64,000 bases of DNA. It comes from Gammaproteobacteria bacterium. GTDB lineage: Bacteria; Pseudomonadota; Gammaproteobacteria; Eutrophobiales; Eutrophobiaceae. A model generated the notes under the pieces. The model searched no databases and had not been told where the DNA came from. It saw nothing but the letters and a program-made list of their open reading frames with translations. The stretch lies in the NCBI GenBank assembly GCA_965261775.1, contig OZ253477.1:526407-590406 (forward strand), read 5' to 3'. The position numbers and the translations under genes are program-made. Positions 14,798 to 31,408 of this stretch are shown one piece after another; positions within the stretch are counted from its first letter, which is position 1, and the number at the start of each line of letters is the position of its first letter.

Positions 14798-15541
14798 TTA
14801 AGTACGCAAGCCTTTGCTACAGATATCCGTTACCGTTCGGCTCCGGCGGCTTTGATTAACATATTCCACTGCGTCGGCCTGGCCTTCAATTGCCGCTTTC
14901 ATTAACGCTGTTTCAGCAGTCTTCTTCTTTGCTTCAGTTTTATAATAATCAATAGAGATCTGAACGTTAATTAGTATCCATTTCAGTCCGCGACGTGCTA
15001 ACTGAATCTGAAGTTCTTCTTCTGGTGATTCTCCATAAGACACATATATAGAGAATCGGCTATCTGAATCAAAGCTAAAGTTGGTTGCTTCTAATGAATC
15101 CAGGTTCTTGACACTATTATTGGCACCGTTTACTAATTCATCCTTATAATCTTCATCTAACAGCTTACTTGATTCTTCTTCCAATGGTTGATCCGACGTC
15201 AACTTAATCAGACCTGGTGGAGTAATATAACTGTCTATCAAATGATTCATAATTTCTGATATGAAGTTTACTGCCAGAGACTCAAATCCTTCTGCTAATA
15301 AATCATTATTAGAATCTGCAGAATCAGAGAAATGGATTTCTATCAACTCTCGGGACTGGCTCTTAAGATTCTCTCGCAGAATAGGAAAGTCTATATTTCG
15401 GGATAATTTTTCCGTATCTTTTTGTTCTATACCGGATTTAATCGCATACATTGTTATAAAAGGGCCGCTTACTAAATAGCCTAATAATAATGCTAAACAA
15501 ATTGCTACAAAAGCATAAGCCGTTTTGTTAGTCGTCTTCAT
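14798..15541 (-). CDS. DUF2939-like exported protein, AT-rich, with a C-terminal ankyrin-like fragment
   Basis: TM helix then GPFIT...KDTEKLSRNIDFPILRENLKSQ; ATGA overlap with orf5 stop. Confidence 0.65.
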   Translation of the reverse strand: MKTTNKTAYAFVAICLALLLGYLVSGPFITMYAIKSGIEQKDTEKLSRNIDFPILRENLKSQSRELIEIHFSDSADSNNDLLAEGFESLAVNFISEIMNHLIDSYITPPGLIKLTSDQPLEEESSKLLDEDYKDELVNGANNSVKNLDSLEATNFSFDSDSRFSIYVSYGESPEEELQIQLARRGLKWILINVQISIDYYKTEAKKKTAETALMKAAIEGQADAVEYVNQSRRSRTVTDICSKGLRT

Positions 15542-16458
15542 CTTTTTTGCCCTCTTTTTTCGGATATGTGTTTCAGAAAGGAATCTACCAGCAACGCGGC
15601 GATATTGAAATCAACAACCTGTTGCAGGCCATACCAGGCGGGGATACTGTTGACCTCAATAATGTAATATTGTTTTTCCTTATCCCGTATCAGATCGACG
15701 CCAGCATAATCAATCTTCAATATCCGACAGGCAGTTTCAGCCAGGAGGACAATTTCATCATCCAGTTTAAATAACCTGCATTCTGCGCCCTGTGCCCGGT
15801 TGGTCAACCAATTGCTGCTGTGCCTTTGCATGGCGGCCACTGCTGTGCCGTCAATGACAAGGATACGAATATCAGTGTAAGGTTTATCTTCTCTTTCGAT
15901 AAATCGCTGCAGATAGTAGACACCGGCGAATTTTCCATCGTGGATCAGGCCGCTACCGTCATCCAGCAAATGCATACCCACCCCCTGTGAACCGAACAAA
16001 GGCTTTAATACTGTCTTGTGTCCCTTGGCGGATTCGGATAACACAATATCATTTGCCTGCTCCATAGATTCGCAGATCCAGGTGAGTGGCGTCGGCAAAC
16101 CAGCACGCTTCAACAACAGGCTAGTCAGCGGCTTGTCAACAGTGCGTTCAATCGCACGTGATGAGTTATAAACGACAACCCCCATATCGTGTAGAGCATG
16201 CAGGATATCCAGGCGAAAGATAAGCTGTTCAAGTGTGCCACCGGAAAACCCCCTGACAAAAACGCCCGGCGGCGGCTGTTCAAATCCGGGGATTATCAGG
16301 TCATTACCAGCCCCGTTTACAGCGATCATACAGTCCGACAGTGATACACAGATGCCGGTGATTCCATGCCTTGCAAACGCCTCACTCAACTGATGCCCAT
16401 GCCAACCCGGATCATCGGTAATAATGGCAAGCTGTCGCGGCATTCCCGGCACAGTCAT
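15538..16458 (-). CDS. RimK-family ATP-grasp glutamate ligase (Orf5 of H4MPT/methanofuran clusters)
   Basis: GGTLEQLIFRLDILHAL, AIERTVDK, KPLFGSQG, YAGVD, EVNSIPAW; follows mch. Confidence 0.88.
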   Translation of the reverse strand: MTVPGMPRQLAIITDDPGWHGHQLSEAFARHGITGICVSLSDCMIAVNGAGNDLIIPGFEQPPPGVFVRGFSGGTLEQLIFRLDILHALHDMGVVVYNSSRAIERTVDKPLTSLLLKRAGLPTPLTWICESMEQANDIVLSESAKGHKTVLKPLFGSQGVGMHLLDDGSGLIHDGKFAGVYYLQRFIEREDKPYTDIRILVIDGTAVAAMQRHSSNWLTNRAQGAECRLFKLDDEIVLLAETACRILKIDYAGVDLIRDKEKQYYIIEVNSIPAWYGLQQVVDFNIAALLVDSFLKHISEKRGQKR

Positions 16459-16528
16459 GGCGTCCTCCGACTATATCGAAAGGACGGCAATTTAATTTTC
16501 GCAAAGAAACCACATAATGGTAACCAGA

Positions 16529-17503
16529 TTAACTGAACGATTGCTTCAATAAATCAAGAGCGATTTTACCGGCGTAAAAGGTATGCCCCGTGTCCAATGA
16601 GGTCACGGCAACTTTGGCCGGGCTGAATAACATGGGATCAATTTTATAAAAATCATAATCGACTTCTTTAAATATCTGCGCGAAAGGCTTACCATAATCC
16701 GCCGAAGCGCTGCTAGGCAGTTTGTTTGCCAGTTCTTCCGCTTCATCATCGTTTCCGTTGATAAACAGTTGTACCTTCCCGGCAAACAGAATCGCGTCGT
16801 TGCTACGACCCATCGCCGTCAGAAAGTCTGCAGACGGTGGGCATATCGGCGCCGTTCCCGCGCCGTCAATGATTTTTTCCAGTGGAAAATGCAGGGCATG
16901 CGCCTTGTGCAGGGCAGTTTCAAGTACGCGCGCGACCACCTGCACCGAACCGGCCAGACTTGATATCGGGGTCAGGATAATAGTCAATGCCGAGGGGGGA
17001 ATGCCACATTTCCCTGAGATCTTGTCGCTTATCTCAACCGGCGGAAATTTATCGACCTCAATCACAATACATGCTGACCCTGCCTTGTCCCGGTAACCCA
17101 GATCCTCGTAAAGCGTTTCACTGCTGCCCATCGCCCTCGCCGGACCTGAACCCAATGCATTAAAAGCGCCCTTGCCTTCCCCAGCCTGTAGATGCCAACC
17201 GGCATATTGGCTGCCGAGACAGGACAGTACTGGATTGCTGCTGTGCACATCCAGATGCCACAGGCAGGGGGGGAAATCGCCTTCAGCGCGCAGATTGGCC
17301 CGCCCAAGCCCGCCCATACAAATCTCGGCGATCAGACGCCCGGCTTCCAGCCCCCCGGGTACGTTGATTCCGGCGTCGATCACGCGGCAACCGTTATCCA
17401 GTTCCGAAACTGCTAATCTCAAGGGCACCGCCTGTTCAACTAGCCGCTCAAGCAGTGGTTTGACAAGTTGATTGATTCCGGGTAATGCTGTTTTTTTATC
17501 CAT
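16529..17503 (-). CDS. mch: Methenyl-tetrahydromethanopterin cyclohydrolase
   Basis: [49 protein letters not shown]. Confidence 0.97.
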
Positions 17504-17551
17504 TCATTATTTACTCCGCTTTTATTGTTATCTGGTGTGGTGAGGCGGAGA

Positions 17552-18667
17552 TCATTTTAACATTAATATCGCCGACTTGATTTCGCGCAGACGCTCATGC
17601 AATACCATTTTAGTCATATCTACCGTATCTGCCGCCACAAACACGGAGCAGACCGGCTGACCGGCCGGTATTTCCTGTCCGGCTTCCGGTCTGTCCCGCA
17701 CCCACGCCGGCCAGATAATATCAGCGTGAATGTAGATATCTTCCCGCAAATATAAAATCGCGTAACCTTGATGAAACGATGCTCTGTTTTGCGTAAAGCC
17801 CGCCCCACCTGTTTCAAAACAAGCGATATGTTCGGCAAACAAAGATCCGCCATGTTCGTGCAGTTCAAAACCGGCCGGCGGCCTCGGGTTGATTTCCAAT
17901 ACGACGATCTCATCCGCCCCGGTTTTAATAAAGTCCACGCCAAACAACCCACGTAAACCCGTATCGGCGGCAATGGTCTTCACGATCCTTTTTACTTCAT
18001 CAAAGATCGGTGTACTGATATCGAATGTCCCAATGGCACCCTGGTAAAGAAACGGAGATTTGCTGAATTGATCGGTATGCAACTGATGATTGAATCCAAT
18101 AATGTCAGTCCCCTTGCTGTCGGCAAGCGCAACCGCGCTCATGGCTTCGCCTTCAACATATTCCTGATAATAGTAATCCAGCCCGGCTTTACCACCCGCC
18201 TGCTCCAACCATCGCACGTGTCCTCCGCCCTCTCCCCCTATCCGTTTGATCAGAAAATGCTCATTGCATTTATCCGACGATAAAAAAGTAGCCGGATAAG
18301 GAATGTGATTATCCGACAATAACTCTTGTAGCCGCCCAGGATCTTTAAGACGCCGGATCGTGTCGGGGTGATTTGAAATCAGCGACATTGATTGTGCCAG
18401 TTTTTCCAGCTGATTCGGATTCGCTTCAAAACCGGAGCCAATCACAACGCCCGTATCAGGACACTCAACGGTCATCCGTCCGACAGCTTCCAGTAATTCA
18501 GCTTCGTCAAAACCACCGTAGTGATATGTCAACTTACAAGATAAAAGGACATCGCGTTGCGTATCAAGATCGGCAAAACAATCAATACTGCAAATCTGGT
18601 ATCCCGCCCGTTTTGCAGAGGCCGCCAAAGCTCTGGCAGAAAGGGAAACCACAATGTAATGCGGCAT
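17552..18667 (-). CDS. ATP-grasp protein (OrfY of H4MPT clusters)
   Basis: SARALAASAKRAG, DCFADLD, GLFGVDF, LEINPRP; lies between mtdB and mch. Confidence 0.82.
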   Translation of the reverse strand: MPHYIVVSLSARALAASAKRAGYQICSIDCFADLDTQRDVLLSCKLTYHYGGFDEAELLEAVGRMTVECPDTGVVIGSGFEANPNQLEKLAQSMSLISNHPDTIRRLKDPGRLQELLSDNHIPYPATFLSSDKCNEHFLIKRIGGEGGGHVRWLEQAGGKAGLDYYYQEYVEGEAMSAVALADSKGTDIIGFNHQLHTDQFSKSPFLYQGAIGTFDISTPIFDEVKRIVKTIAADTGLRGLFGVDFIKTGADEIVVLEINPRPPAGFELHEHGGSLFAEHIACFETGGAGFTQNRASFHQGYAILYLREDIYIHADIIWPAWVRDRPEAGQEIPAGQPVCSVFVAADTVDMTKMVLHERLREIKSAILMLK

Positions 18668-18718
18668 AAATCACGCCAATCCAATAGAACAACAATCGGA
18701 CAACAAGGGTGGCTGACT

Positions 18719-19630
18719 CTATCCCTCCGCGGAAATAAATTGCTTTGCTACCTCAAAGGCTTGCAAATGGTCAAGATATACCGGCGTATCGGAGTTTTTC
18801 ATCATTTCAAACATCCTGAAATGTACTTTGTATTTAATATCGCCGATGGCAAGTGCGCCGATACCCAGCACTTTTTTTGGGGTACCACTCAATTCAACCC
18901 CCATATCACCGACCCCGACACCTTCAATACCGGCCGGTGGCACCGCATTACAATCGGCGACAACCAGCAACCTCGCCGCCTGTTCTAGCTGTTTTCGGGA
19001 TACAGTTTGAATGCCGGCCTTTGCCGCGTTAATAACAACCTGAGATTCGCCTAAAAACGCCATGACTTTGTCAGATGTACTGCTGTCCTCTCCACGCATT
19101 TCAACATTGAAACGGGTATTATATTCAGCAGCATATTCCGCCGCGACCATGGCCCCGCGACGACTGCTTAAATAAACCTCGGCACCGGAACCGGCCGCTA
19201 GAATACCGGCACAGACACCGACTGGACCGGTGCCGCCAATAATATCCACGCGTTTTCCCGACAGGGTTTCACCCGTTTTTTCTTTTAATTGGGCCTCTAT
19301 ACAGGCTATTAGAGCCGCCGCTGTCGTAATGGCACCGCTTGGATCGGCAAACACCGAAACTTCAAACGGGGGCACCATCGCAGACCTGGCACGCTTTAAC
19401 ATATCAATTGCTAATCCGAATTCCCGTCCGCCTATAAAAATGCCGGTGCGCTTAACACCTTTTTTACCGCGTGAGAAGATTGTATCCTGGGTTAAAGCAT
19501 GGATATCATCCAACGTTACTTCCGAGTAAGGAATGACGCCGTCAAACTCCGCCTCATAGGCCATATTCACATCAAACGGGCTGATATTTTTGGTTGGGTT
19601 AAACATATGTAACAAATAAGGATCTTTCAT
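18719..19630 (-). CDS. mtdB: NAD(P)-dependent methylene-H4MPT dehydrogenase, MtdB type
   Basis: LHMF..SPFDVNMA, QDTIFSR, MVPPFEVSVFADPSGA, GGTGPVG, D.NAVPP. Confidence 0.92.
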   Translation of the reverse strand: MKDPYLLHMFNPTKNISPFDVNMAYEAEFDGVIPYSEVTLDDIHALTQDTIFSRGKKGVKRTGIFIGGREFGLAIDMLKRARSAMVPPFEVSVFADPSGAITTAAALIACIEAQLKEKTGETLSGKRVDIIGGTGPVGVCAGILAAGSGAEVYLSSRRGAMVAAEYAAEYNTRFNVEMRGEDSSTSDKVMAFLGESQVVINAAKAGIQTVSRKQLEQAARLLVVADCNAVPPAGIEGVGVGDMGVELSGTPKKVLGIGALAIGDIKYKVHFRMFEMMKNSDTPVYLDHLQAFEVAKQFISAEG

Positions 19631-19648
19631 AATGATTATTTTTCCGCT

Positions 19649-20680
19649 TTAGTTTAAAGGTTTGATTTTCAGATTTTCATCCTGCGTTTCCGCCCCGATA
19701 TCACTCGCCGATATCCGCGCAGCAGTATTACACCCGCGGCCTACCACGAAACGCAATGCCTGTCGGGAACGCCACGTATGTCGCACTTTTCTCAACGCCG
19801 CCGAGGCTACTTTCTCATCGGCAAAGATGGCGAAACCAGTCGGTCCCCAAGAACTTTGCCCCACGCCCGTCGCCCCTGTATCGGTTAATTCGTCCAGTAT
19901 GGATTTCAAATGGGCGGAAGCATAACTCTGTTTTTGTATCGGCGAAAAGTAATCGCCCATAATATTCTGTATTTCGGTGATTGCCATGCCAAAACGTTCA
20001 CAATCATTTTCACATATGGCCGGTAAAACCTGCATCAGGGTTAACCGGCTCAGTAAACCCGACATTGATTCTGACATAGGCGCCAGAGTATCAAAGGCAT
20101 GTTGCTCCGGTGCACCGTTGATGCCTTCCGTTTCATCATCCAGAATCAGAATCATTCGCCAATTTTCGGGAAAAGGCAAACGGCTGATAATGGGGGGGAT
20201 CTCGGTGCGCTCTCCCCTGCCCCCGTCAATGACAAACCCGCCCCACATAAAAGTACCGATACCGACACCCGAACGCGCACCCCGATGCAAAATGACCGCT
20301 AACCGCACGGGGTTTTGCTCGCTCAAACCATAAAGTCTGGCAATGGCAACGGCGATAGACAGGGAAAGCCGGGTGCCCGAACCGAGGCCGATATGTTCAG
20401 GAACGGCTGAATGGATCGACACCTTCACGCCGCCCTCAATACCAAAATGCGACAGTATCCGTTCAGCATAACGGCGTCCCCGCTCAGCGGACGGGCCGCT
20501 GACTTCAATATCAGCGGCACGCTCAGCGGACAATACTGTTTCAATAGGCGAAATGGACAGACCCAGACTCCCGAATTTTCTGCCAAACCCACCGTGCATA
20601 TCCAGAAACCCCAGATGCAATCGCGCTGGCACGCTCACACTGATGCAGCGGGGATTGTTCATTGGCTGATTAGTTTTCAT
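19649..20680 (-). CDS. mptG: Beta-ribofuranosylaminobenzene 5'-phosphate synthase (GHMP family)
   Basis: PARLHLGFLD, PEHIGLGSGT, RGARSGVG, GGFVIDGG, GQSSWGPT. Confidence 0.92.
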   Translation of the reverse strand: MKTNQPMNNPRCISVSVPARLHLGFLDMHGGFGRKFGSLGLSISPIETVLSAERAADIEVSGPSAERGRRYAERILSHFGIEGGVKVSIHSAVPEHIGLGSGTRLSLSIAVAIARLYGLSEQNPVRLAVILHRGARSGVGIGTFMWGGFVIDGGRGERTEIPPIISRLPFPENWRMILILDDETEGINGAPEQHAFDTLAPMSESMSGLLSRLTLMQVLPAICENDCERFGMAITEIQNIMGDYFSPIQKQSYASAHLKSILDELTDTGATGVGQSSWGPTGFAIFADEKVASAALRKVRHTWRSRQALRFVVGRGCNTAARISASDIGAETQDENLKIKPLN

Positions 20681-20821
20681 TTATTCGGAGGGTATCATCG
20701 GCACTGCTTTTACAGGGAATGACGGATCATACTTTACATTGGCACCCGAAGATAGTCGGAAGTGGCAACTGCCTAAAATTATTTGTTTCCGTAATAGTCG
20801 CCGCTATAATAAACAACCATT

Positions 20822-21187
20822 ATGATTGCAAAATCCAAACAAAACGCTGTAGAAAGAATGATCCTTATCCCCGGACGTTCAAGTAAACAGGGAACATCTC
20901 TCAATAAGGGCAAACTGAAAGAAGAATATATCCGGGTAACGTCAACCTTGGAAATGAATATGGATGACATGAAAAGGCTTAAACTGTCTGATGGCGATGA
21001 GGTACGATTAAAGAATGGTATTGGGAGCACTGTGGTCCGCTGCCTCGGCAAAAAACCGGAAGATCTCCCGGCCGGCACCCTTTTCATCGCTTACGGACCA
21101 CCCTCCAGTGAACTGATGGCAAGCGATACTGCGGGAAGCGGTATGCCATTATCAAAACATATTGAAGTTGAAATTGAGAAACTCTGA
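20822..21187 (+). CDS. fwdD: Formylmethanofuran dehydrogenase subunit D-like (molybdopterin dinucleotide-binding domain); start may be 20858
   Basis: LIPGRSSKQG, MNMDDMKRL, FIAYGP, T.GSGMP..K; directly upstream of subunit B. Confidence 0.85.
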   Translation: MIAKSKQNAVERMILIPGRSSKQGTSLNKGKLKEEYIRVTSTLEMNMDDMKRLKLSDGDEVRLKNGIGSTVVRCLGKKPEDLPAGTLFIAYGPPSSELMASDTAGSGMPLSKHIEVEIEKL

Positions 21188-21235
21188 AAAAAACCACATA
21201 CTGAACAGTCTTGTTCATAAGGGAGGAATTCTGTA

Positions 21236-22576
21236 ATGGGCGAAAATACCAAAATAGTTGAAAACGCGACATGCACCTTTTGCGGCTGTGTTTGCGACGA
21301 TATGGAACTACATGTCGATCTTGATGAAAAACGCATCACGCGAGCCAAAAACGCCTGTGTATTAGGCCGCGCCTGGTTTGCGGAGCATACCATTGAAGAG
21401 GCGCCGGTAGCGAAGATTGCGGGCAAGGCGGTTGAACTTGAAGAAGCAATTGAGGTGGCGGCACAAGTACTGGTCAAGGCAAAATTTCCGATTACCTATG
21501 GCTTGAGTGACACCACTTGCGAGGCACAACGTCAGGCGGTTGCCATCACGGATATCATTCGGGGCAATATTGATACGACCACTTCCGTTTGTCATGGACC
21601 ATCCGGACTGGCGTTTCAGGGGGTGGGCGAAAGCACTAGTACTCTGGGTGAAGTGAAAAATCGTGCCGATCTGGTCATCTACTGGGGGGGCAATCCGGCT
21701 GAATCGCATCCGCGTCATTTTGGGCGCTACGCTGTCACCCCGAAAGGGATGTTCACGCCAGGTGGAAAAAAAGACCGTACTATAGTGCTGGTTGATGTAC
21801 GTAAAACGAAAAGTACGCCAGTAGCCGATATTTTTATTCAACCCAAGCCCGGCAAAGATTTTGAAGTTCTGTGGGCATTGCGCATACTGGTCAAAGGTAA
21901 AAAGCCATCCCCGGATATTGAAGACGTCACCGGCGTCTCTTTGGAAGTCCTGTCAGATTTGGCGGAACGCATGAAAAACTGCCGTTTCGGTGTACTCTTT
22001 TTCGGGATGGGTCTGACCATGACGCGGGGACGTCATTTTAATTCAGGCGCATTGCTGGCGCTGGCAACCGACCTGAACGAATTTACCCATTTTGTCGCCA
22101 AACCGGTACGTGGTCACGGCAATGTCACTGGAGCCGACAATGTCGTTTCCTGGCAAACCGGGTACCCCTTCGGGGTCAATTTCAGTCGCGGCTATCCGCG
22201 CTTCAATCCGGGCGAATTCACTGCCGTTGATGTCCTCTCAAACAGCGATGCTGATGCCGCGTTGATTATCGCCAGTGACCCGGCCTCAAATTTCCCCAAA
22301 CAGGCTATCGAACATCTGAAGAGCATCCCCGTGATCTCGCTGGATACCAAAGAGACCGAAACTACCAAAGGTGCCTATGTTTCCTTTCGAACCGCGACTT
22401 ACGGCATCAATACCGGTGGGACAGTTTATCGCATGGATGATGTCCCCATTACCCTGCGGCCGGCCTTTGAATCACCTTTTCCAGATGACGAGACCATCCT
22501 GAGCGCGATAAAAGAACGGGTACGCGAGTTGATGTTCGCCCGATACAAAACCGATCGGACCACCGAGGCGGCATAG
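21236..22576 (+). CDS. fwdB: Formylmethanofuran dehydrogenase subunit B with intact 4Fe-4S and Mo/W-ligand motifs
   Basis: CTFCGCVCDD...NAC, SVCHGPS, TLGEVKNRAD, HPRH, RGHGNV, GTVYRMD. Confidence 0.93.
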   Translation: MGENTKIVENATCTFCGCVCDDMELHVDLDEKRITRAKNACVLGRAWFAEHTIEEAPVAKIAGKAVELEEAIEVAAQVLVKAKFPITYGLSDTTCEAQRQAVAITDIIRGNIDTTTSVCHGPSGLAFQGVGESTSTLGEVKNRADLVIYWGGNPAESHPRHFGRYAVTPKGMFTPGGKKDRTIVLVDVRKTKSTPVADIFIQPKPGKDFEVLWALRILVKGKKPSPDIEDVTGVSLEVLSDLAERMKNCRFGVLFFGMGLTMTRGRHFNSGALLALATDLNEFTHFVAKPVRGHGNVTGADNVVSWQTGYPFGVNFSRGYPRFNPGEFTAVDVLSNSDADAALIIASDPASNFPKQAIEHLKSIPVISLDTKETETTKGAYVSFRTATYGINTGGTVYRMDDVPITLRPAFESPFPDDETILSAIKERVRELMFARYKTDRTTEAA

Positions 22577-22655
22577 CATTATCCCAAAAAATAATTCAAT
22601 GGCTCAAACCATTGATTGAACAAACAATAAAACCAGCCTTTTTCAGAACAATTTG

Positions 22656-24293
22656 ATGTCGACTTCCATACGTATAATCAATGGTCGGGTATTTGATCCG
22701 ACAAACGGTATCAACGGCAAAATAAAAACGCTCTGTATCCAGGACGGTAAAATTGTTGCTTCAATCACCGAAGAAGACGCAACCGTCATTGACGCGCAAG
22801 GGATGGTCATTATGCCGGGTGGCGTGGATATCCATTGTCATATTGCCGGTCCCAAGGTCAATGCTGCCAGAAAACTGCAACCTGAAGACCATCGCCATGA
22901 CGTGCACCCCTCAACACCGTTCACCCGTTCCGGTGTCGGCGGCACGGTACCTTCGACCTTTACCACCGGCTACCGCTACGCGACGATGGGATACACCACA
23001 GCGATGGAGGCGGCCGTCACCCCTATTGGCGCCCGCCACACTCTGGAAGAATTTCATGACACTCCGGTCATTGATAAAGGATTTTATGTCCTGCTCGGTA
23101 ATAATATCCTTCTGCAGCAACTGTTGCGCGAAAAGCGTATGGAAGAATTTGAACAGGCTACTGCCTGGTGGATCAGTTCCACCAAAGCCTATACGGTAAA
23201 ACTGGTGAATCCCGGTGGAGATGAACCCTGGAAGGGCAAAAAAAATTCCAATGTATCGGACATTGATGAAAAAACCGGAGGCGATTTAACACCGAGGCAA
23301 ATCATAGAAGCGTTCATCAAGTTCGTCAATAAGCGCAAGTTTCCGCATCCGGTCCACATCCACTGCAACAATCTTGGGCATAGCGGGAATTACAAGACCA
23401 CGCTTGAAACGATGAAAACAGCAGGCGACCTGAAAGCGCATCTGGCGCATATTCAATTCCACAGCTACGGTGGTGAAATAGGAAAAAACCCGCTGTCAAA
23501 GGCAACAGAAATCATTGAATATATCAATGAGCACCCCAACATCACCTGTGATGTCGGTCAAGTTATGTTCGGCAAATCCACGATCATGACTGCCGATGCC
23601 CCTATGGCTTATGTCCTGAAAGGACACAGCAAGAGTAAGTGGGTGAATGCAGATACTGAATGCGAAAGCGGTTGCGGTATTGTGCCTTTTACCTATCAAG
23701 AGCACAGCTATACGCACACCCTGCAATGGGCCATCGGCCTTGAACTTTTTCTGATGTCAAAAGACCCCTGGCGCGTTGTGCTCTCTACCGACCACCCGAA
23801 CGGCGGTTCGTTTATGAATTATCCGAAATTGATCAAACTGCTGATGGATAAAGCATTCCGCCATGAAGAAATGAAACGCGTTAACCAAAAGGCCCTGGAT
23901 AAATGCACCCTGCGCGACCTGGAACGGGAATATACCCTGAATGAAATTGCGATCATTACTCGCGCTGGTCCGGCGCGGGCACTGGGTCTTGAGATGAAGG
24001 GGCACCTCGGACCGGGCGCCGACGCAGATATCACTATTTACGACGATATGGAAGACAAGGAAGCAATGTTTAGCGCGCCCCGTTATGTCATCAAGGCCGG
24101 CGTTCCTGTGATCGCGGACCACGAATTCAGGCATGATATCAGCGGCAAACTGTTTCATATTGAGCCGGAATATGATCGGAAAATCGAGAACATCGTGCGG
24201 TCCTTTTTTGAAAATTATTATTCGATTGAATTTTCAAACTATGCCGTGGATGATTGCTACCTGCACAGCCACCAAATCATCGCCACCAAATAA
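22656..24293 (+). CDS. fwdA: Formylmethanofuran dehydrogenase subunit A / FhcA (binuclear amidohydrolase)
   Basis: PGGVDIHCH, VKLVNPGG, HIHCNNLG, HIQFHSY, QWAIGLE, TDHPNGG. Confidence 0.95.
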   Translation: MSTSIRIINGRVFDPTNGINGKIKTLCIQDGKIVASITEEDATVIDAQGMVIMPGGVDIHCHIAGPKVNAARKLQPEDHRHDVHPSTPFTRSGVGGTVPSTFTTGYRYATMGYTTAMEAAVTPIGARHTLEEFHDTPVIDKGFYVLLGNNILLQQLLREKRMEEFEQATAWWISSTKAYTVKLVNPGGDEPWKGKKNSNVSDIDEKTGGDLTPRQIIEAFIKFVNKRKFPHPVHIHCNNLGHSGNYKTTLETMKTAGDLKAHLAHIQFHSYGGEIGKNPLSKATEIIEYINEHPNITCDVGQVMFGKSTIMTADAPMAYVLKGHSKSKWVNADTECESGCGIVPFTYQEHSYTHTLQWAIGLELFLMSKDPWRVVLSTDHPNGGSFMNYPKLIKLLMDKAFRHEEMKRVNQKALDKCTLRDLEREYTLNEIAIITRAGPARALGLEMKGHLGPGADADITIYDDMEDKEAMFSAPRYVIKAGVPVIADHEFRHDISGKLFHIEPEYDRKIENIVRSFFENYYSIEFSNYAVDDCYLHSHQIIATK

Positions 24294-24301
24294 CCCCCGA
24301 C

Positions 24302-25210
24302 ATGAAGATTAAATCAACCGAAATTGATAACACCTTTGCCGAAGCGTTCAAGATGTACGCCGCCCGCATCGTCATCACGGCGGCGACAAAAGAATGGGCC
24401 ATGGCAGCGGCGCAGTCCGTTACCGGCTTTGCCACCTCCGTCATCGGTTGCAAATGCGAGGCAGGGATTGAACGCGAAATATTCCCCGAGGATTCACCTG
24501 ATCTCAGACCCGGTGTCACCGTTTTGCTCTTTGCGATGGATGCGGAAAATCTTGGTAAACGCCTGGTGGAACGTATCGGTCAGTGCGTGATGACCTGCCC
24601 ATCAACCGCTTGCTACAACGGTCTGGACGAGGGCAACCGCATCGGGGTCGGCGATCGGTTACGTTATTTTGGTGATGGTTATCAGATGAGCAAAATGATT
24701 GCCCATAAACGACTCTGGCGTATCCCTGTAATGGATGGTGAATTTTTGATAGAAGATCAATTCAGGACAGTTCAGTCTGTTGGCGGAGGCAATCTAATCA
24801 TCCTGGGCAAAAGTCAGCATGCCACACTTAAAGCCGCCACCGCTGCCGCTAAAATAATGCGAAAAATGCCAGAGGTGATATTACCCTTTCCCAACGGCGT
24901 AGTACGTAGCGGCAGCAAAGTCGGTTCTCGTTATAAGTCCCTCATTGCCTCCACCAATGACGCTTATTGTCCGAGCCTGCAAGCTGTTGTTGAACATTCC
25001 GCGCTTGAAACTGGTATAAACAGCGCACTTGAAATCGTGGTCAATGGTTTAAATCCAGAGGCCGTGGAGCAAGCCATGTGCGCGGGGATGGAGGCCGCCG
25101 CAAAGCCCGGTATCAAAAAAATCAGCGCAGGCAATTACGGAGGCAAACTGGGTCAATATCAAATTCACCTGCATAAACTGCTGCAACGGAAAAGCGAGCA
25201 TGGCGCTTAG
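24302..25210 (+). CDS. ftr: Formylmethanofuran:H4MPT N-formyltransferase (Ftr/FhcD)
   Basis: TFAEAF, GFATSVIGC..EAG, RIGQCVMTCP, RSGSKVGS, SAGNYGGKLG. Confidence 0.96.
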   Translation: MKIKSTEIDNTFAEAFKMYAARIVITAATKEWAMAAAQSVTGFATSVIGCKCEAGIEREIFPEDSPDLRPGVTVLLFAMDAENLGKRLVERIGQCVMTCPSTACYNGLDEGNRIGVGDRLRYFGDGYQMSKMIAHKRLWRIPVMDGEFLIEDQFRTVQSVGGGNLIILGKSQHATLKAATAAAKIMRKMPEVILPFPNGVVRSGSKVGSRYKSLIASTNDAYCPSLQAVVEHSALETGINSALEIVVNGLNPEAVEQAMCAGMEAAAKPGIKKISAGNYGGKLGQYQIHLHKLLQRKSEHGA

Positions 25211-26012
25211 ACTGAAATTACATACCCGACCGGAAGTCCCACTGGAGGCGGATTGCATCTGTCCGGACAAATTAAAGGGGCTTACCCACAAGGAAATTTC
25301 GAGACTGACCCTGTTTCACGGTAACCGCCAGGCCTGTCTGGGCGAATTCTTTGATTGCGGTGGCGAATTTGACGGTCATATTCATATCACCGGCGAGATG
25401 GATAATATCAGACACTTTGGGGCCGCGATGTCATCCGGCAGCATTCATATTGACGGGAATGTCGGCATGCATACCGGCGCCGCAATGCGCGGCGGTGAGA
25501 TATGCATTGAAGGCAATGCTTCGGACTGGCTGGGAGCCGAGATGACGGGTGGTAGAATAACCGTTCGCGGCAATGCCGGACACATGGTCGGTTGCGGCTA
25601 TCGCGGTAGTTCTGTCGGGATGCAGGGTGGCGAAATCATCATTCACGGCAATGTCAAAAACGAAACCGGCCATGTCATGCGCCGCGGCCTGATTGCGATC
25701 GGCGGCGACAGCGGCGACTTCACCGGGGTCAATATGCTGGCAGGGACAATCATTGTGCTGGGACGGATGGGGATCCGCTCCGGCGCGGGAATGAAACGCG
25801 GTTCTATCATTTGCATGGGGAAAACGGATATATTACCGACATTCACATACAGTTGCCGTTATCATCCCGTGTTCATGCGATATTATTATCGATATTTGAA
25901 GGCAACGGGATTAATCGTTCCCGATGTTTTTCTGGACGGACTTTTCGATAGATGGTGCGGTGATGCCGTGGAATTTAATCGAGGAGAAATATTACTCTAC
26001 AAGGGAAAATAA
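25200..26012 (+). CDS. fwdC: Formylmethanofuran dehydrogenase subunit C / FhcC
   Basis: Repeated G..M.GG.I.I.GN beta-helix units; GAGMKRG. Confidence 0.94.
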   Translation: MALRLKLHTRPEVPLEADCICPDKLKGLTHKEISRLTLFHGNRQACLGEFFDCGGEFDGHIHITGEMDNIRHFGAAMSSGSIHIDGNVGMHTGAAMRGGEICIEGNASDWLGAEMTGGRITVRGNAGHMVGCGYRGSSVGMQGGEIIIHGNVKNETGHVMRRGLIAIGGDSGDFTGVNMLAGTIIVLGRMGIRSGAGMKRGSIICMGKTDILPTFTYSCRYHPVFMRYYYRYLKATGLIVPDVFLDGLFDRWCGDAVEFNRGEILLYKGK

Positions 26013-26043
26013 ACTTAAACCAAGCAAAACTGGAGAGATGCTC

Positions 26044-26349
26044 ATGACAACAATCGTAACCGATAATTGTAAAGACTGCCGTTTTACCGACTGTGTAACC
26101 GTATGTCCTGTTGACTGTTTCCACTATGACGACACAATGCTCTACATTGACCCCGAGGTCTGCATTGACTGTAGTGCCTGTATTCCCGAATGTCCCGTCG
26201 AAGCGATTCTCGAGGATGATGATATCCCCGAAGACAAGCAACACTGGATAGAAATCAATGCCGAAAAAGCGCCCAATCTACCCGTCTGTAACGAAAAAAT
26301 GGAACCTCTTTCGGGGGCAGAAGAAAAGAGAACAGCACTTGGTTTTTAG
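26044..26349 (+). CDS. fdxA: 7Fe (3Fe-4S + 4Fe-4S) ferredoxin, FdxA/Azotobacter FdI type
   Basis: VTDNCKDCRFTDCVTVCPVDCF...CIDCSACIPECPVEAI; GGAGAG RBS upstream. Confidence 0.9.
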   Translation: MTTIVTDNCKDCRFTDCVTVCPVDCFHYDDTMLYIDPEVCIDCSACIPECPVEAILEDDDIPEDKQHWIEINAEKAPNLPVCNEKMEPLSGAEEKRTALGF

Positions 26350-26380
26350 TGCCTTTTAACACCACAGACAGGGACAAACT

Positions 26381-27754
26381 ATGTCAGACAATAAAGAGAA
26401 ACCTTTGCTCGTTGCCGTCGTTGGCAGCGGACCGAGTGGTTTTTACGCTGCAGAGGCACTCATCAAATCCGATACCAATGTCAGGATTGACATGTTTGAA
26501 CGTCTCCCCTCCCCCTACGGACTGGTACGCAGCGGCGTCGCCCCGGACCATCAGAAATTAAAACAGGTCATTCGGATCTATCAGAAGATCGCGGCAATGC
26601 CGGATTTTAAGCTGATTGCCAATGTCACCGTCGGCAGGGACATCTCCGTAGATGAACTTCGCCGCTTGTATCATGCCGTTATCTTCTGCTACGGAGCCGA
26701 GACCGACAGGAAACTCGGGGTCCCCGGTGAAGACCTGAACGGCAGTCATACCGCAACCGAGTTCGTCGGCTGGTATAATGGGCATCCCGATTATCAGGAC
26801 CGCCATTTTGACCTGTCCAGCGAAGTGGCTGTAATTATCGGCCAGGGTAATGTTGCCGCTGATGTCAGCCGCATTCTTGCTAAAACGGTGGACGAATTAA
26901 AACACACCGATATCGCTCAACATGCTCTGGACGCACTGGCGGAAAGCCGGGTCAGGGAAATTCATGTTATCGGACGCCGCGGCCCGGCTCAGGCAAAATT
27001 CACCACCAGAGAACTGCGTGAATTTGGCGAACTGGGGGATTGCGCCCCGGTCGTACTCGCGGAAGACCTGGAGCTTAATGCGGAAAGCCAAACGGAGCTT
27101 GAAGACAAAGGTCATGCCACCAACAAAAAAATTTACGGGCTGTTCCGTGATTTTTCTGAACTTCCACCTTCGCCGCAAAAATCAAAAAAGTGCTTTTTTA
27201 AATTTTTGCTTGGTCCTAAAATCCTGGAAGGTTCCGGGAAACTGGAAAGAGTGGTCCTTGAGCGCAACAAACTGAGCGGCGCGCCATTTAAACAATCAGC
27301 CGCCGGTACCGGCGAGACAATCGAACTGGAAACCGGTCTGTTATTCCGCAGCATTGGTTATCACGGTTTACCGATGGTCGGTGTTCCCTTTGATGAAAAA
27401 CGGGGCATTATCCCCAATGAAAAAGGACGAGTAAGGGATAACCCGCAACTGTACGCAGCCGGCTGGATCAAACGTGGTCCCAGCGGGATTATCGGAAATA
27501 ATCGCGCCTGTAGTGTTGAAACCGTTGCTTGTTTGCTGGAAGATAAGAAGAAACTGGCAGATGGCACTGAAAAAACAGGAGCAGATGGCGTATATGCCCT
27601 GCTGAAAGAGAGAAATATCCGTCCCCTGGGTTATGATGATTGGCGGAAAATTGATACTGCCGAAATAAGCTCTGGCAAGACCAGAGGCAAACCGCGCGAA
27701 AAATATGTTGTCGTCAGTGAAATGCTTGCACTCATTGATAATTTAGGAAAATAA
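26381..27754 (+). CDS. Ferredoxin-NADP+ reductase, adrenodoxin-reductase/FprA family
   Basis: GSGPSG, PYGLVRSGVAPDH, FVGWYNGHP, GQGNVAAD, GRRGPAQAKF, GWIKRGPSGIIG. Confidence 0.92.
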   Translation: MSDNKEKPLLVAVVGSGPSGFYAAEALIKSDTNVRIDMFERLPSPYGLVRSGVAPDHQKLKQVIRIYQKIAAMPDFKLIANVTVGRDISVDELRRLYHAVIFCYGAETDRKLGVPGEDLNGSHTATEFVGWYNGHPDYQDRHFDLSSEVAVIIGQGNVAADVSRILAKTVDELKHTDIAQHALDALAESRVREIHVIGRRGPAQAKFTTRELREFGELGDCAPVVLAEDLELNAESQTELEDKGHATNKKIYGLFRDFSELPPSPQKSKKCFFKFLLGPKILEGSGKLERVVLERNKLSGAPFKQSAAGTGETIELETGLLFRSIGYHGLPMVGVPFDEKRGIIPNEKGRVRDNPQLYAAGWIKRGPSGIIGNNRACSVETVACLLEDKKKLADGTEKTGADGVYALLKERNIRPLGYDDWRKIDTAEISSGKTRGKPREKYVVVSEMLALIDNLGK

Positions 27755-27786
27755 TGGATAATTGATGATTATCGGTTTTTGATCAA

Positions 27787-27846
27787 GGCGCCCCCCGGCG
27801 GGTTTTTTCCTCGTGTGTCTTACCGCCGAACGGGGCGCCGCTTTTT
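27787..27846 (+). terminator. GC-rich interrupted hairpin followed by a T-run between convergent genes
   Basis: ggcgcccc/ggggcgcc and cggcgg/ccgccg arms, then TTTTT. Confidence 0.4.
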
Positions 27847-27986
27847 AAGTATGCGGTTTTGTCCGCAAAAACCGATAAAATTGCATCCCTCCCAAAATTA
27901 AACCGGTTTATTTCTTCATAGGGGAATAGGAAATACCGTCATTTTACTGCTTTAATTTTTCGGATTTGCATAAGATGCGCTATTGG

Positions 27987-29078: not shown

Positions 29079-29079
29079 A

Positions 29080-30138: not shown

Positions 30139-30140
30139 AA

Positions 30141-30334
30141 CTATTTTTGTATTAAATCATCAACATCAACTTCAAGCGCCCTGGCTATTTTAGAAATGTT
30201 TCGATGGTTAGATTCTTACTTGATGCCGCTCTCAATTTTTACGACTGTAGCGACAAATTGGCAAGACGGGTAACCTTTTCGAGAAAGTAGCCCTTTTCCG
30301 CTCTTATCTTTTTAAGGTTATCCGCAATTTTCAT
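30141..30334 (-). pseudogene. XRE-family HTH regulator (controller-like) with three frameshifts
   Basis: Segments MKIADNLKKIRAEKGYFLEKVTRLANLSL / TVVKIESGI / KNLTIET / SKIARALEVDVDDLIQK* in shifting frames; stop lies 2 nt before the MTase ATG. Confidence 0.8.
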
Positions 30335-30443
30335 GGTCAGTTTCGGAACAAACCCTATGGTTCGTGACAAATTCCCGCCCTTCGCGAGGGGTTTTCTTCC
30401 TTTTCGGCGTATCCGCCCTCCTTTCAAAAGCGCAAGTTACTGT

Positions 30444-31388: not shown

Positions 31389-31408
31389 AGGTTTCGTCAT
31401 CATTTAAT

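What the first reader, a model, noticed from the sequence alone, without database searches (positions are those of the whole stretch)
20822..22576. Apparently catalytic Mo/W formylmethanofuran dehydrogenase (FwdD + intact FwdB) inside a bacterial fhcBADC-type operon
Seen: a FwdD-like gene precedes subunit B. B keeps CxxCxxxC...C (from residue 13), the Cys-His pair SVCHG (Cys119, TGT at 21590) and the active-site Arg in RGHGNV (residue 292). Known: methanogen FwdB/D bind a Mo/W-bis-PGD through this Cys, whereas Methylorubrum extorquens FhcB has lost the pterin and Fe-S sites, has no D subunit and releases formate. Inference: this gammaproteobacterial complex joins the bacterial B-A-ftr-C order to an archaeal-like redox site, so it could oxidise formyl-methanofuran to CO2 (or run in reverse). 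moeA in the window is consistent with Mo/W cofactor synthesis. Similar fwdD-bearing clusters may exist in other bacteria such as planctomycetes, so novelty must be checked.
Basis: partly seen in the sequence, partly recalled or inferred. Interest (0 to 1): 0.85.

Follow-up and report, generated by a model that had tools for sequence, protein, structure and literature searches.

The report
Bacterial redox-type formylmethanofuran dehydrogenase operon
A small methanol-oxidising gammaproteobacterium carries, beside the usual bacterial formate-releasing complex, a second seven-gene operon that looks like a working archaeal-style metal enzyme able to burn the formyl group straight to CO2 and pass the electrons through its own ferredoxin to NADP.

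Summary
Window 20822-27754 (+) is one tight operon: fwdD, fwdB, fwdA, ftr, fwdC, a 7Fe ferredoxin and an FprA/adrenodoxin-reductase-type NADPH:ferredoxin reductase. FwdB matches five solved archaeal FwdB/FmdB chains over its full length (E 1e-102 to 1e-112) and M. extorquens FhcB only weakly. It keeps Cys119-His120, Arg292 and 70 of 73 columns conserved in archaeal-type catalytic FwdB; the genome's own second copy, a classical FhcB beside NAD-formate dehydrogenase, keeps 36 of 73 and has lost Cys, His and Arg. FwdC is chimeric, with an archaeal-like beta-helix and a C-terminus found only in bacterial FhcC, where Ftr docks. The operon recurs in 80 uncultured species, nearly all labelled gammaproteobacterial, and all 81 FwdB keep the site. 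Their FwdB clade is sister to a planctomycete clade, not nested among methanogens. Planctomycete-type loci also carry fwdD but no ferredoxin or reductase. Best reading: a Mo/W formyl-methanofuran dehydrogenase with built-in Ftr, oxidising formyl groups to CO2 and yielding NADPH. fmdDBAC operons in planctomycetes and NC10 were already noted in print. No metal, activity or expression data exist. Verdict: new variant of a known kind.

The parts
20822..21187 (+). fwdD: the small 'domain IV' cap subunit of the pterin site (121 aa from the ATG at 20822; an alternative ATG lies at 20858)
   Evidence: Pfam PF01568 E 3.5e-10 and NCBIfam NF042908 E 1.1e-18. Full-length alignment to 5t5i_D, 8rja_D and 2ki8_A. 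Present within 1.2 kb upstream of fwdB in 68 of 69 related gamma loci with enough upstream DNA.
21236..22576 (+). fwdB: catalytic Mo/W-bisPGD subunit with an N-terminal 4-Cys [4Fe-4S] motif, Cys119-His120 and Arg292
   Evidence: TIGR03129 510.7 bits. E 1e-102 to 1e-112 over the full length to five archaeal FwdB/FmdB chains, against 5.8e-13 (partial) to M. extorquens FhcB 6s6y_B. Site invariant in 81 of 81 sequences. 70 of 73 catalytic-lineage columns kept.
22653..24293 (+). fwdA: amidohydrolase subunit (formyl-methanofuran hydrolysis/synthesis). The ORF starts at TTG 22653; an ATG follows at 22656.
   Evidence: TIGR03121 704 bits. 478.6 bits to 8rja_A and 471.8 to 5t5i_A, against 353.8 to M. 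extorquens FhcA 6s6y_A. The HxH, K, H, H and D motifs are identical to archaeal FwdA in the printed alignments.
24302..25210 (+). ftr (fhcD-type): formylmethanofuran:H4MPT formyltransferase, placed inside the operon as in bacterial fhcBADC
   Evidence: Pfam FTR and FTR_C, E about 1e-58 each, from residue 17 of the listed ORF. TIGR03119 414.6 bits. Downstream of fwdB in 55 of 55 gamma loci with enough DNA.
25200..26012 (+). fwdC: beta-helix scaffold subunit. The core is archaeal-like; the C-terminal ~50 residues are of bacterial FhcC type (the Ftr docking part).
   Evidence: TIGR03122 262.7 bits. Residues 9-216 align best with 9sw6_K and 5t5i_C. Residues 217-265 align only with M. extorquens FhcC 6s6y_C. 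[quoted passage not shown]
26044..26349 (+). 7Fe-type ferredoxin (101 aa), the proposed electron acceptor of FwdB
   Evidence: E 4e-29 to Azotobacter-type '7-Fe ferredoxin I' chains, with Cys columns aligned. NF045490 FdxA 113.7 bits. Nine Cys invariant in 38 of 38 orthologues. Present in 53 of 55 gamma loci and 0 of 25 planctomycete-type loci.
26381..27754 (+). FprA/adrenodoxin-reductase-type NADPH:ferredoxin oxidoreductase (457 aa)
   Evidence: E 1.2e-106 over the full length to M. tuberculosis FprA 1lqt_A and 9.4e-98 to adrenodoxin reductase 1cjc_A. Present in 53 of 55 gamma loci and 0 of 25 planctomycete-type loci.
15538..20680 (-). Divergent H4MPT/methanofuran module: RFAP synthase 19649-20680, methylene-H4MPT dehydrogenase-like 18719-19630, MfnD-like ATP-grasp 17552-18667, mch 16529-17503, MptN-like glutamate ligase 15538-16458
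   Evidence: NCBIfam and Pfam hits. mch and RFAP synthase are found upstream in most related loci.
60..1145 (+). moeA (5' end cut by the window). It is the last gene of an fdhD-mobA-moeA row and is not specific to this operon.
   Evidence: NF007960 510.6 bits. fdhD lies at G000:C1:524280-524990 and mobA at 525133-525684, just before the window.

Best explanation
Window 20822-27754 encodes a hybrid complex. It combines an archaeal-type, Mo- or W-bis-pyranopterin formyl-methanofuran dehydrogenase (FwdA, FwdB, FwdC, FwdD) with a built-in bacterial-style formyltransferase (Ftr, docked on an FhcC-type C-terminus of FwdC). It is followed by its own electron chain, a 7Fe ferredoxin and an FprA-type ferredoxin:NADP reductase. 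Proposed mechanism, inferred from homology. Ftr moves the formyl group from formyl-H4MPT to methanofuran/methylofuran. FwdA hydrolyses it at its binuclear metal site. The formate is oxidised to CO2 at the Cys119-ligated Mo/W centre of FwdB, capped by FwdD. Electrons leave through the FwdB [4Fe-4S] cluster to the ferredoxin and then to NADP+, giving NADPH. It works beside the classical, non-redox FhcBADC plus NAD-formate dehydrogenase route of the same methanol-oxidising cell. That route releases free formate. Shown here: gene content, intact catalytic and cofactor-site residues, operon conservation, and phylogenetic placement. Inferred: cofactor content, direction, substrate channelling, and the ferredoxin/NADP link.
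For: (1) FwdB matches five solved archaeal FwdB/FmdB chains end to end (345-377 bits), but M. extorquens FhcB only over residues 239-409 (51 bits). (2) PMC6926001 (passages) names Cys118, His119 and Arg288 as catalytic, the N-terminal Fe-S domain, and the FwdD cap as what Fhc lacks. All are present here and invariant in 81 of 81 sequences. (3) Of 73 columns conserved in at least 10 of 11 archaeal-type catalytic representatives, this FwdB keeps 70. The genome's own FhcB keeps 36, and 105 other representatives have a median of 45, range 37-60. (4) FwdB is the best conserved protein of the operon, at 77-88% identity across 80 species loci. (5) The ferredoxin and FprA-like genes follow fwdC in 53 of 55 gamma loci with enough DNA, with gaps of about 30 nt in the window. 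Their closest solved relatives are 7Fe ferredoxin I and NADPH-ferredoxin reductase FprA. (6) Thermodynamics favour oxidation. The formyl-MFR/CO2 couple is about -0.53 V (PMC11656701 passage), against about -0.32 V for NADP (textbook value, recalled). (7) The FwdC C-terminus is of FhcC type and ftr sits between A and C. (8) The cell has the upstream pathway: a PQQ methanol dehydrogenase, fae, an mtd-like gene and mch. It also has fdhD, mobA and moeA for bis-PGD enzymes. (9) The genome has a separate complete fhcB-A-ftr-C cluster beside NuoEF-like/Fdh-alpha genes, and its B subunit has lost Cys, His and Arg. The window operon is therefore not the cell's only Fhc.
Against: No biochemical, metal or expression evidence exists for any member. 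No FwdF/FwdG polyferredoxin is encoded in the operon, so the electron exit differs from every solved Fwd. Archaeal Fwd enzymes are oxygen-sensitive (recalled), whereas this organism carries a cytochrome bd oxidase gene (cydB, subunit II) and a PQQ methanol dehydrogenase. No ModA was found, and the only TupA-like binding protein is an orphan below its family cut-off (220 of 400 bits), so metal supply is unclear. The operon is dispensable: 4 of 24 genomes of other genera in the same family lack the FwdB type. Neither the Fe-S motif nor a D domain alone proves activity: 98 of 121 representatives keep the four Cys without the site, and one D-B fusion representative (P0127) has Gly in place of Cys. 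Pterin-contact residues were judged by conservation, not mapped on a structure with the cofactor.
Confidence: 0.62

Rival explanations
1. The FwdBD module is redox-active but works mainly as a ferredoxin-linked formate dehydrogenase on free formate. That formate would include what the neighbouring classical Fhc complex releases, rather than formate channelled from FwdA. The operon would then be a second formate dehydrogenase with an NADPH output.
For: In 44 of 52 related loci the operon is directly followed by the classical fhcB-fhcA genes, and in 4 of 52 by NAD-FDH genes. The two systems are therefore probably co-expressed and share a formate pool. FwdB is a member of the formate dehydrogenase lineage.
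Against: The operon carries its own complete fwdA, ftr and fwdC, conserved at 53-85% identity (one weak 36% fwdC hit aside), with ftr in 55 of 55 loci. FwdA keeps all the metal-site motifs. A plain formate dehydrogenase would not need these.
Confidence: 0.15
2. The complex runs in reverse. It would reduce CO2 to formyl-methanofuran and on to methylene-H4MPT for carbon assimilation, as in methanogens.
For: The archaeal homologues work in this direction. No RuBisCO match and no hexulose-phosphate synthase above cut-off were found in the 98%-complete genome, so the assimilation route is open.
Against: The only linked electron donors are a 7Fe ferredoxin and an NADPH reductase. NADPH (about -0.32 V, recalled) cannot drive a -0.53 V couple without bifurcation or ion-gradient coupling, and none is encoded in the operon. 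The cell has methanol dehydrogenase and fae, which feed the pathway oxidatively.
Confidence: 0.07
3. The site residues are a conserved relic. The complex would bind no pterin and act as a second formyltransferase/hydrolase that releases formate, with B and D as scaffolds only.
For: M. extorquens shows that the fold can serve as a pure scaffold (PMC6926001). Most family representatives have lost the site (106 of 121).
Against: Cys119, His120 and Arg292 are invariant, and 180 of 446 columns are invariant across 81 sequences that differ by up to 23%. 70 of 73 catalytic-lineage columns are kept. FwdD is retained and a redox partner pair is co-conserved. The cell already has a scaffold-type Fhc.
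Confidence: 0.06

Closest known systems
Archaeal tungsten/molybdenum formylmethanofuran dehydrogenase FwdABCD(FG) / FmdABCD (PDB 5T5I, 7BKB, 8RJA, 9SFI, 9SW6)
   Same: It has the same four core subunits. FwdB keeps the 4-Cys motif, the Cys-His pair and the Arg. FwdD is a separate cap. FwdA keeps identical metal-site motifs. The FwdC beta-helix is present. Full-length matches of E 1e-102 to 1e-142 for B and A.
   Different: It is bacterial. Its B clade is sister to a planctomycete clade, not nested inside the archaeal-type clade. It has no FwdF/G polyferredoxin and instead a 7Fe ferredoxin plus an FprA-type NADPH reductase. ftr lies inside the operon and FwdC has an FhcC-type C-terminus. The expected direction is oxidative.
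Formyltransferase/hydrolase complex FhcABCD of Methylorubrum extorquens (PDB 6S6Y; PMC6926001)
   Same: The gene order is B-A-ftr-C. The C-terminal part of subunit C aligns only with FhcC. The host is a methylotroph that uses the H4MPT pathway.
   Different: FhcB has Ser for the Cys, lacks His and Arg, lacks the N-terminal Fe-S domain and has no D subunit (passages). Here all of these are present. FhcB matches the window's FwdB only at 51 bits over residues 239-409. The true Fhc counterpart of this genome is the other cluster at G000:C1:272280-276960.
fmdD-fmdB-fmdA-fmdC operons of a Rhodopirellula-like planctomycete, a Lake Washington fosmid bacterium and Ca. Methylomirabilis oxyfera (PMC4807772, section 'Selenoproteins in P1 and P2' read)
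   Same: These are bacterial D-B-A-C operons with a Sec or Cys at the active site. The planctomycete-labelled FwdB clade is the sister of the gamma clade. fwdD lies upstream of fwdB in 51 of 60 planctomycete-type metagenome loci.
   Different: Among planctomycete-type loci with enough DNA, ftr follows in only 5 of 25 and the ferredoxin or FprA-like gene in 0 of 25. The gamma operon is compact, NADPH-linked, and usually fused in tandem to a classical fhc cluster. That paper treated the gene as a selenoprotein and proposed no pathway role.
Fmd of Ca. Ethanoperedens thermophilum coupled to an F420 reductase (PDB 8RJA; PMC11656701 passage)
   Same: It is a precedent for an Fmd that works oxidatively (formyl-MFR to CO2) and has swapped its electron-output module.
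   Different: It is archaeal and anaerobic, and its output is F420 rather than ferredoxin/NADPH.

Membership tests
Mo/W formylmethanofuran dehydrogenase (Fwd/Fmd) | B subunit with a Cys or Sec metal ligand followed by His, and the active-site Arg | tested here: met
   Cys119-His120 and Arg292 align with the same residues of 5t5i_B, 8rja_B and 9sfi_Q. They are invariant in 81 of 81 sequences. The residue roles come from PMC6926001 passages.
Mo/W formylmethanofuran dehydrogenase (Fwd/Fmd) | N-terminal [4Fe-4S] Cys motif in B | tested here: met
   C13, C16, C20 and C41 are present and invariant. The motif is not discriminating: 98 of 121 representatives have it without the catalytic site.
Mo/W formylmethanofuran dehydrogenase (Fwd/Fmd) | Separate or fused D subunit (domain IV cap of the pterin) | tested here: met
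   fwdD lies at 20822-21187. PF01568 E 3.5e-10; 5t5i_D E 4.3e-12 over residues 12-118.
Mo/W formylmethanofuran dehydrogenase (Fwd/Fmd) | Overall retention of pterin-site and catalytic-lineage residues | tested here: met
   70 of 73 columns conserved in archaeal-type catalytic representatives are kept, against 36 of 73 in the genome's own FhcB. The columns were chosen by conservation, not by contact with the cofactor in a structure.
Mo/W formylmethanofuran dehydrogenase (Fwd/Fmd) | A subunit amidohydrolase with binuclear metal ligands, and C subunit beta-helix | tested here: met
   The HxH, K, H, H and D motifs are identical to five archaeal FwdA chains in the printed alignments. The FwdC core scores 158-165 bits to 5t5i_C and 9sw6_K. 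Which residues are ligands rests on the FhcA list in PMC6926001 and on recall.
Mo/W formylmethanofuran dehydrogenase (Fwd/Fmd) | Polyferredoxin (FwdF/FwdG) electron module | tested here: not met
   No such gene is in the operon. The only Fe-S protein is a 101-aa 7Fe ferredoxin that matches FwdF chains only as a generic 4Fe-4S motif.
Mo/W formylmethanofuran dehydrogenase (Fwd/Fmd) | Bound Mo or W bis-PGD and formyl-methanofuran:acceptor oxidoreductase activity | not testable with these tools
   This needs purification, metal analysis and assays.
Bacterial formyltransferase/hydrolase complex (Fhc) | B subunit without pterin-site residues, and no D subunit | tested here: not met
   The site residues and fwdD are present. 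The genome's other cluster does meet this feature.
Bacterial formyltransferase/hydrolase complex (Fhc) | [quoted passage not shown] | tested here: met
   ftr lies at 24302-25210, between fwdA and fwdC. FwdC residues 217-265 align only with 6s6y_C. Docking itself is inferred.
FprA / adrenodoxin reductase family (NADPH:ferredoxin reductase) | Full-length similarity to FprA/AdR | tested here: met
   1lqt_A E 1.2e-106, residues 7-450 of 457; 1cjc_A E 9.4e-98. Nucleotide preference was not tested.
7Fe ([3Fe-4S][4Fe-4S]) ferredoxin I | Cys spacing of Azotobacter-type FdI | tested here: met
   E 4e-29 to 7Fe ferredoxin I chains, with all Cys aligned. Nine Cys are invariant in 38 orthologues. Cluster types are inferred from the homologues.

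The most novel reading that the evidence does not exclude
A large, uncultured, methanol-oxidising gammaproteobacterial family (and, with a different electron output, many planctomycetes) runs a true bacterial formyl-methanofuran dehydrogenase. This would be a hybrid Ftr-FwdABCD machine that oxidises formyl-H4MPT-derived carbon to CO2 without releasing formate. It would capture the very low-potential electrons in a dedicated 7Fe ferredoxin and convert them to NADPH. It would do so in cells that respire oxygen, possibly with tungsten, since only a TupA-like binding protein and no ModA was found. That would overturn the textbook split 'archaea: redox Fwd; bacteria: hydrolytic Fhc' and provide an oxygen-exposed all-in-one CO2/formyl enzyme.
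Probability: 0.45. Interest if true: 0.75.

Novelty: new variant of a known kind. Interest (0 to 1): 0.6.

Why it matters
The accepted picture, based on M. extorquens, is that bacterial methylotrophs turned the archaeal CO2-fixing Fwd machine into a non-redox formate-releasing complex. PMC5020050 (part 1 of 3 of the text read) states that the fwdD homologue is not present in Proteobacteria or Planctomycetes. This operon shows an intact redox version in a widespread proteobacterial lineage, standing side by side with the classical complex in the same cell and often in the same gene row. If it is active, three things follow. Formaldehyde oxidation in these organisms has a formate-free branch that yields NADPH or reduced ferredoxin. 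The evolutionary path from Fwd to Fhc gains a living intermediate: the redox site is kept while Ftr docking has already been acquired. Enzymologists gain a compact Fwd with a simple soluble electron chain, from oxygen-respiring bacteria, for CO2/formyl chemistry. The limits are that this rests on sequence evidence only, that related D-B-A-C operons in planctomycetes and NC10 were already noted, and that databases already name these genes 'formylmethanofuran dehydrogenase'.

Tried and rejected
Expression: the look-up of sequencing runs listed no RNA holder. Three RNA runs carrying the same species label were laid on window 14800-34500. 8 reads in one run fell in one bin of the fprA-like gene, and 0 reads in the other two. 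No conclusion on expression can be drawn.

Binding of the ferredoxin to FwdB: complex prediction with alignments A2 and A1 gave 'no answer' (scores 0.14 and 0.10, mark 0.32). This is not evidence either way.

The 50%-identity representatives therefore carry no names. 'Archaeal-type' rests on P0150 matching M. hungatei 7bkb_H at 586 bits and on P0131. 'Planctomycete' rests on source names of eight proteins and on the Atlas listing.

Promoter/terminator scan of 20500-28200: 11 promoter-like and 15 terminator-like sites, against 9.3 and 10.3 expected from shuffles. Not informative.

Rejected idea, recent transfer from methanogens: the gamma clade (100) groups with planctomycete-labelled sequences (98) and apart from the archaeal-type clade. 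That tree is a quick IQ-TREE with SH-aLRT only and no inferred root.

Rejected idea, the operon is the genome's only Fhc: a second complete cluster exists.

Rejected as evidence: moeA as specific support and the 4-Cys motif.

Metal choice: no ModA was found. One orphan TupA-like protein scores below its cut-off, and the single SBP_bac_11 protein looks phosphonate/thiamine-like. Mo versus W is left open.

None returned a paper describing this gammaproteobacterial operon, its ferredoxin/FprA link, or an assay of a bacterial Fwd. Subscription journals, including Chistoserdova 2013 and Vorholt 2005 (the latter not held), were not searchable. Supplements were not opened. SI Fig. S6 of PMC6926001, S9 Table of PMC4807772 and the trees of PMC10100899 may bear on residue roles and on which bacteria were already listed.

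Structure prediction and fold search were not run. Full-length E of about 1e-110 to solved chains made them unnecessary.
Full report
WHAT IS THERE.

The window is G000:C1:526407-590406 of a single-contig 2.21-Mb genome that is 98.4% complete. Between 20822 and 27754 on the + strand lie seven tightly spaced genes:
- fwdD, 20822-21187
- fwdB, 21236-22576
- fwdA, 22653-24293
- ftr, 24302-25210. The Pfam FTR domain starts at residue 17 of the listed ORF.
- fwdC, 25200-26012
- a 101-aa ferredoxin, 26044-26349. The listed ORF starts earlier, but all 38 orthologues begin at this Met.
- a 457-aa flavoprotein, 26381-27754

Diverging upstream on the - strand are H4MPT and methanofuran genes: RFAP synthase, a methylene-H4MPT dehydrogenase-like gene, an MfnD-like ATP-grasp, mch and an MptN-like ligase.

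FwdB scores 510.7 bits on TIGR03129. It aligns over its whole length with five solved archaeal FwdB/FmdB chains: 9sfi_Q 1.1e-111, 8rja_B 1.8e-111, 5t5i_B 1.5e-109, 9sw6_J 5.4e-107 and 7bkb_H 3.6e-102. M. extorquens FhcB (6s6y_B) matches only residues 239-409, at 5.8e-13.

The printed alignments place the window's S-V-C-H-G-P-S and R-G-H-G-N-V-T-G on the same columns as in the archaeal chains. The Cys codon is TGT at 21590.

PMC6926001 (passages read) names what FhcB lacks relative to FwdB: catalytic Cys118 (Ser62 in FhcB), His119, Arg288, the N-terminal [4Fe-4S] domain, and the FwdD 'fourth domain' that caps the tungstopterin. All five are present here.

A SECOND, CLASSICAL CLUSTER IN THE SAME GENOME.

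A genome search with TIGR03129 found a second B gene at C1:275690-276922 (330.9 bits). It heads a complete fhcB-fhcA-ftr-fhcC row, which is followed by NuoEF-like and Fdh-alpha genes (NAD-type formate dehydrogenase). A PQQ methanol dehydrogenase lies nearby.

That FhcB keeps the four N-terminal Cys. It has ...D-H-M-H-G-D-S... where the Cys-His should be, and Asp where the Arg should be. The window operon is therefore an extra system, not the cell's Fhc.

HOW INTACT IS THE SITE?

I searched 1.84 billion 50%-identity representatives with FwdB. This gave 2640 hits at E up to 0.001, of which the best 150 were listed. I dropped the 29 shorter than 395 aa. Of the remaining 121:
- 15 have the four Cys plus Cys-His plus Arg;
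- 98 have the four Cys only;
- 8 have neither.

I took 11 catalytic representatives of the archaeal-type clade. One of them, P0150, matches M. hungatei FmdB at 586 bits. These gave 73 columns conserved in at least 10 of 11. The window's FwdB keeps 70. Its own FhcB keeps 36. The other 105 representatives have a median of 45, range 37-60.

The columns were chosen by conservation, not by cofactor contact in a structure.

THE OTHER SUBUNITS.

FwdA is closer to archaeal FwdA (478.6 bits to 8rja_A, 471.8 to 5t5i_A) than to M. extorquens FhcA (353.8). It shares the HxH, Lys, His, His and Asp motifs with the five archaeal chains printed.

FwdC is chimeric. Residues 9-216 align best with archaeal FwdC. 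Residues 217-265 align only with M. extorquens FhcC. Per PMC6926001, that part forms a helix-loop-helix instead of the archaeal hairpin and holds FhcD/Ftr.

Together with ftr sitting between A and C, this points to an Ftr-FwdABCD assembly.

THE ELECTRON CHAIN.

The ferredoxin matches Azotobacter-type 7Fe ferredoxin I at 4e-29, with all Cys aligned. Nine Cys are invariant in 38 orthologues.

The flavoprotein matches M. tuberculosis NADPH-ferredoxin reductase FprA at 1.2e-106 and adrenodoxin reductase at 9.4e-98, over its full length.

No FwdF/G-like polyferredoxin is present.

CONSERVATION ELSEWHERE.

A scan of one genome per species found 392 relatives, of which the best 80 were returned. All 80 are uncultured. 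Most are labelled Gammaproteobacteria, with some Thiotrichaceae, Legionellales, Chromatiales, 'Ca. Oxydemutatoraceae' and Enterobacteriaceae-labelled bins. Two are labelled Proteobacteria, and there is one each of Planctomycetota and Gemmatimonadota.

All 81 FwdB sequences, the window included, keep C13, C16, C20, C41, C119, H120 and R292. 180 of 446 columns are invariant.

Among loci with enough flanking DNA:
- fwdD lies within 1.2 kb upstream in 68 of 69;
- ftr follows in 55 of 55;
- the ferredoxin follows in 53 of 55;
- the FprA-like gene follows in 53 of 55.

FwdB is the most conserved protein of the row at 77-88% identity. FwdA is 65-85%, Ftr 58-76% and FwdD 54-82%.

In 44 of 52 loci the FprA-like gene is directly followed, on the same strand, by a classical fhcB. 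In 4 of 52 it is followed by NAD-FDH genes, and in 4 by neither. The two systems therefore usually form one gene row. In the window's genome they are about 270 kb apart. A low-GC restriction-modification pair sits where the fhc genes would be.

In the same family, 20 of 24 genomes of other genera carry the FwdB type, and 19 of those also carry an FhcB type. 3 carry only FhcB and 1 neither. In 16 other families of the class, 3 carry it.

ORIGIN.

A FastTree of 123 rows places the window's FwdB in a 98-supported clade of 22 that holds 13 of the 16 rows with Cys-His plus Arg. Its own FhcB falls in a distant clade.

A quick IQ-TREE of 52 rows (LG+C20 PMSF, SH-aLRT only, root not inferred) gives a gamma clade (100) sister to seven planctomycete-labelled sequences (96). 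The joint support is 98, apart from the archaeal-type clade.

The nearest 50% representative, P0126 (52-53% identity), is a D-B fusion. Its close relatives are labelled Pirellulales. All 121 sequences in that alignment (P0126, its 119 listed relatives and the window's FwdB) have Cys-His and Arg. The ESM Atlas also lists planctomycete-dominated clusters as nearest.

Planctomycete-type metagenome loci (80 fetched) have fwdD upstream in 51 of 60. ftr follows in only 5 of 25, and the ferredoxin or FprA-like gene in 0 of 25.

The redox B/D pair is therefore a shared bacterial lineage. The compact NADPH-linked operon is special to the gamma clade.

PHYSIOLOGY.

The genome has a PQQ methanol dehydrogenase (633 bits), fae (247 bits), mch and an mtd-like gene. 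It has no RuBisCO match and no hexulose-phosphate synthase above cut-off.

fdhD, mobA and moeA form a row that ends at the start of the window. They are needed by the NAD-FDH as well, so they are consistent with this reading but not specific to it.

No ModA was found. One orphan TupA-like protein scores 220 bits against a cut-off of 400.

MECHANISM PROPOSED.

Formyl-H4MPT passes its formyl group via Ftr to methanofuran/methylofuran. FwdA hydrolyses it. The formate is oxidised at the Cys-ligated Mo/W centre of FwdB, capped by FwdD. Electrons go through the FwdB cluster to the 7Fe ferredoxin and then, via the FprA-like reductase, to NADP+.

The direction follows from the couple at about -0.53 V (PMC11656701 passage) against about -0.32 V for NADP (recalled).

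Gene content, residues, conservation and phylogeny are shown here. Cofactor content, activity, channelling, ferredoxin docking and direction are inferred.

WHAT IS KNOWN.

- PMC5020050 (part 1 of 3 of the text read) states that the fwdD homologue is kept in Archaea, Synergistetes, Firmicutes and NC10 but is not present in Planctomycetes or Proteobacteria.
- PMC4807772 (one section read) reports an fmdD-fmdB-fmdA-fmdC operon with a Sec-type fmdB in a planctomycete, in a Lake Washington fosmid bacterium and in M. oxyfera. It treats the gene as a selenoprotein.
- PMC10100899 (passages) counts 149 bacterial FwdB hits and infers transfer from Archaea.
- PMC13322032 (passages) is an example of metagenomic papers that list 'fwdABCDE' in a bacterial methanotroph without comment.

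None of my ten searches returned a description of the gammaproteobacterial operon, of the ferredoxin/FprA link, of the tandem Fwd-plus-Fhc arrangement, or of an assay of a bacterial Fwd. Subscription journals and supplements were not seen.

VERDICT.

This is a new variant of a known kind: a bacterial, Ftr-integrated, ferredoxin/NADPH-linked formyl-methanofuran dehydrogenase that coexists with the classical Fhc.

Interest is moderate to high for C1 biochemists. It is tempered by the planctomycete and NC10 precedents and by the lack of any functional data.

Noticed in passing
G000:C1:272280-276960 (L007 10280-14962, - strand) and L007 1304-10024: This is a second, classical fhcB-fhcA-ftr-fhcC cluster, followed by NuoEF-like and Fdh-alpha (NAD-formate dehydrogenase) genes and lying near a PQQ methanol dehydrogenase. 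Its FhcB has lost Cys-His and Arg but keeps the four N-terminal Cys.
   Followed up: yes
50%-identity representatives of the FwdB/FhcB family: 98 of 121 full-length representatives keep the four-Cys [4Fe-4S] motif although they lack the Cys-His/Arg site. M. extorquens FhcB, which lacks the whole N-terminal domain, may therefore be atypical. Many 'scaffold' FhcB proteins may still bind an Fe-S cluster of unknown use.
   Followed up: partly
window 27987-30138 (- strand): A low-GC stretch (0.40) holds a GmrSD_N + HNH endonuclease-like ORF and an EcoRI-type adenine methyltransferase. It sits directly after the FprA-like gene, where 44 of 52 relatives have the classical fhc cluster. This looks like an insertion or rearrangement breakpoint.
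   Followed up: partly
window 31566-34531 (+): pntA and pntB (the membrane NAD(P) transhydrogenase) lie 4 kb downstream of the NADPH-producing end of the operon. The adjacency is particular to this genome and may be a coincidence.
   Followed up: no
G000:C1:524280-525684 and window 60-1145: An fdhD-mobA-moeA row (sulfurtransferase/chaperone, guanylyltransferase and Mo/W insertase for bis-PGD enzymes) straddles the window start.
   Followed up: partly
L088:1432-2268 (-), i.e. G000:C1 about 1542667-1543503: The only oxoanion-binding protein recognised is an orphan TupA-like (tungstate-type) protein at 220 bits, cut-off 400, with no adjacent permease or ATPase. No ModA match was found in the 98%-complete genome. 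This is a weak hint that tungsten rather than molybdenum is used.
   Followed up: partly
P0126, P0127, P0131, P0133, P0145, P0156, P0201, P0246 (570-640 aa): Eight fused D-B proteins exist among the representatives. P0126 and its relatives are labelled Pirellulales. One fusion (P0127) has Gly in place of the catalytic Cys, so the D domain can outlive the active site.
   Followed up: partly
window 35406-36542 (+): A class-V aminotransferase (378 aa) is encoded here. In a methylotroph without RuMP or RuBisCO hits it could be a serine-glyoxylate aminotransferase of a serine cycle. This was not tested.
   Followed up: no
L035 and L052: Two loci whose records are labelled Planctomycetota and Gemmatimonadota carry a gamma-clade FwdB (80% identity) and group inside the gamma clade. 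This is probably a binning or labelling error rather than a transfer.
   Followed up: partly
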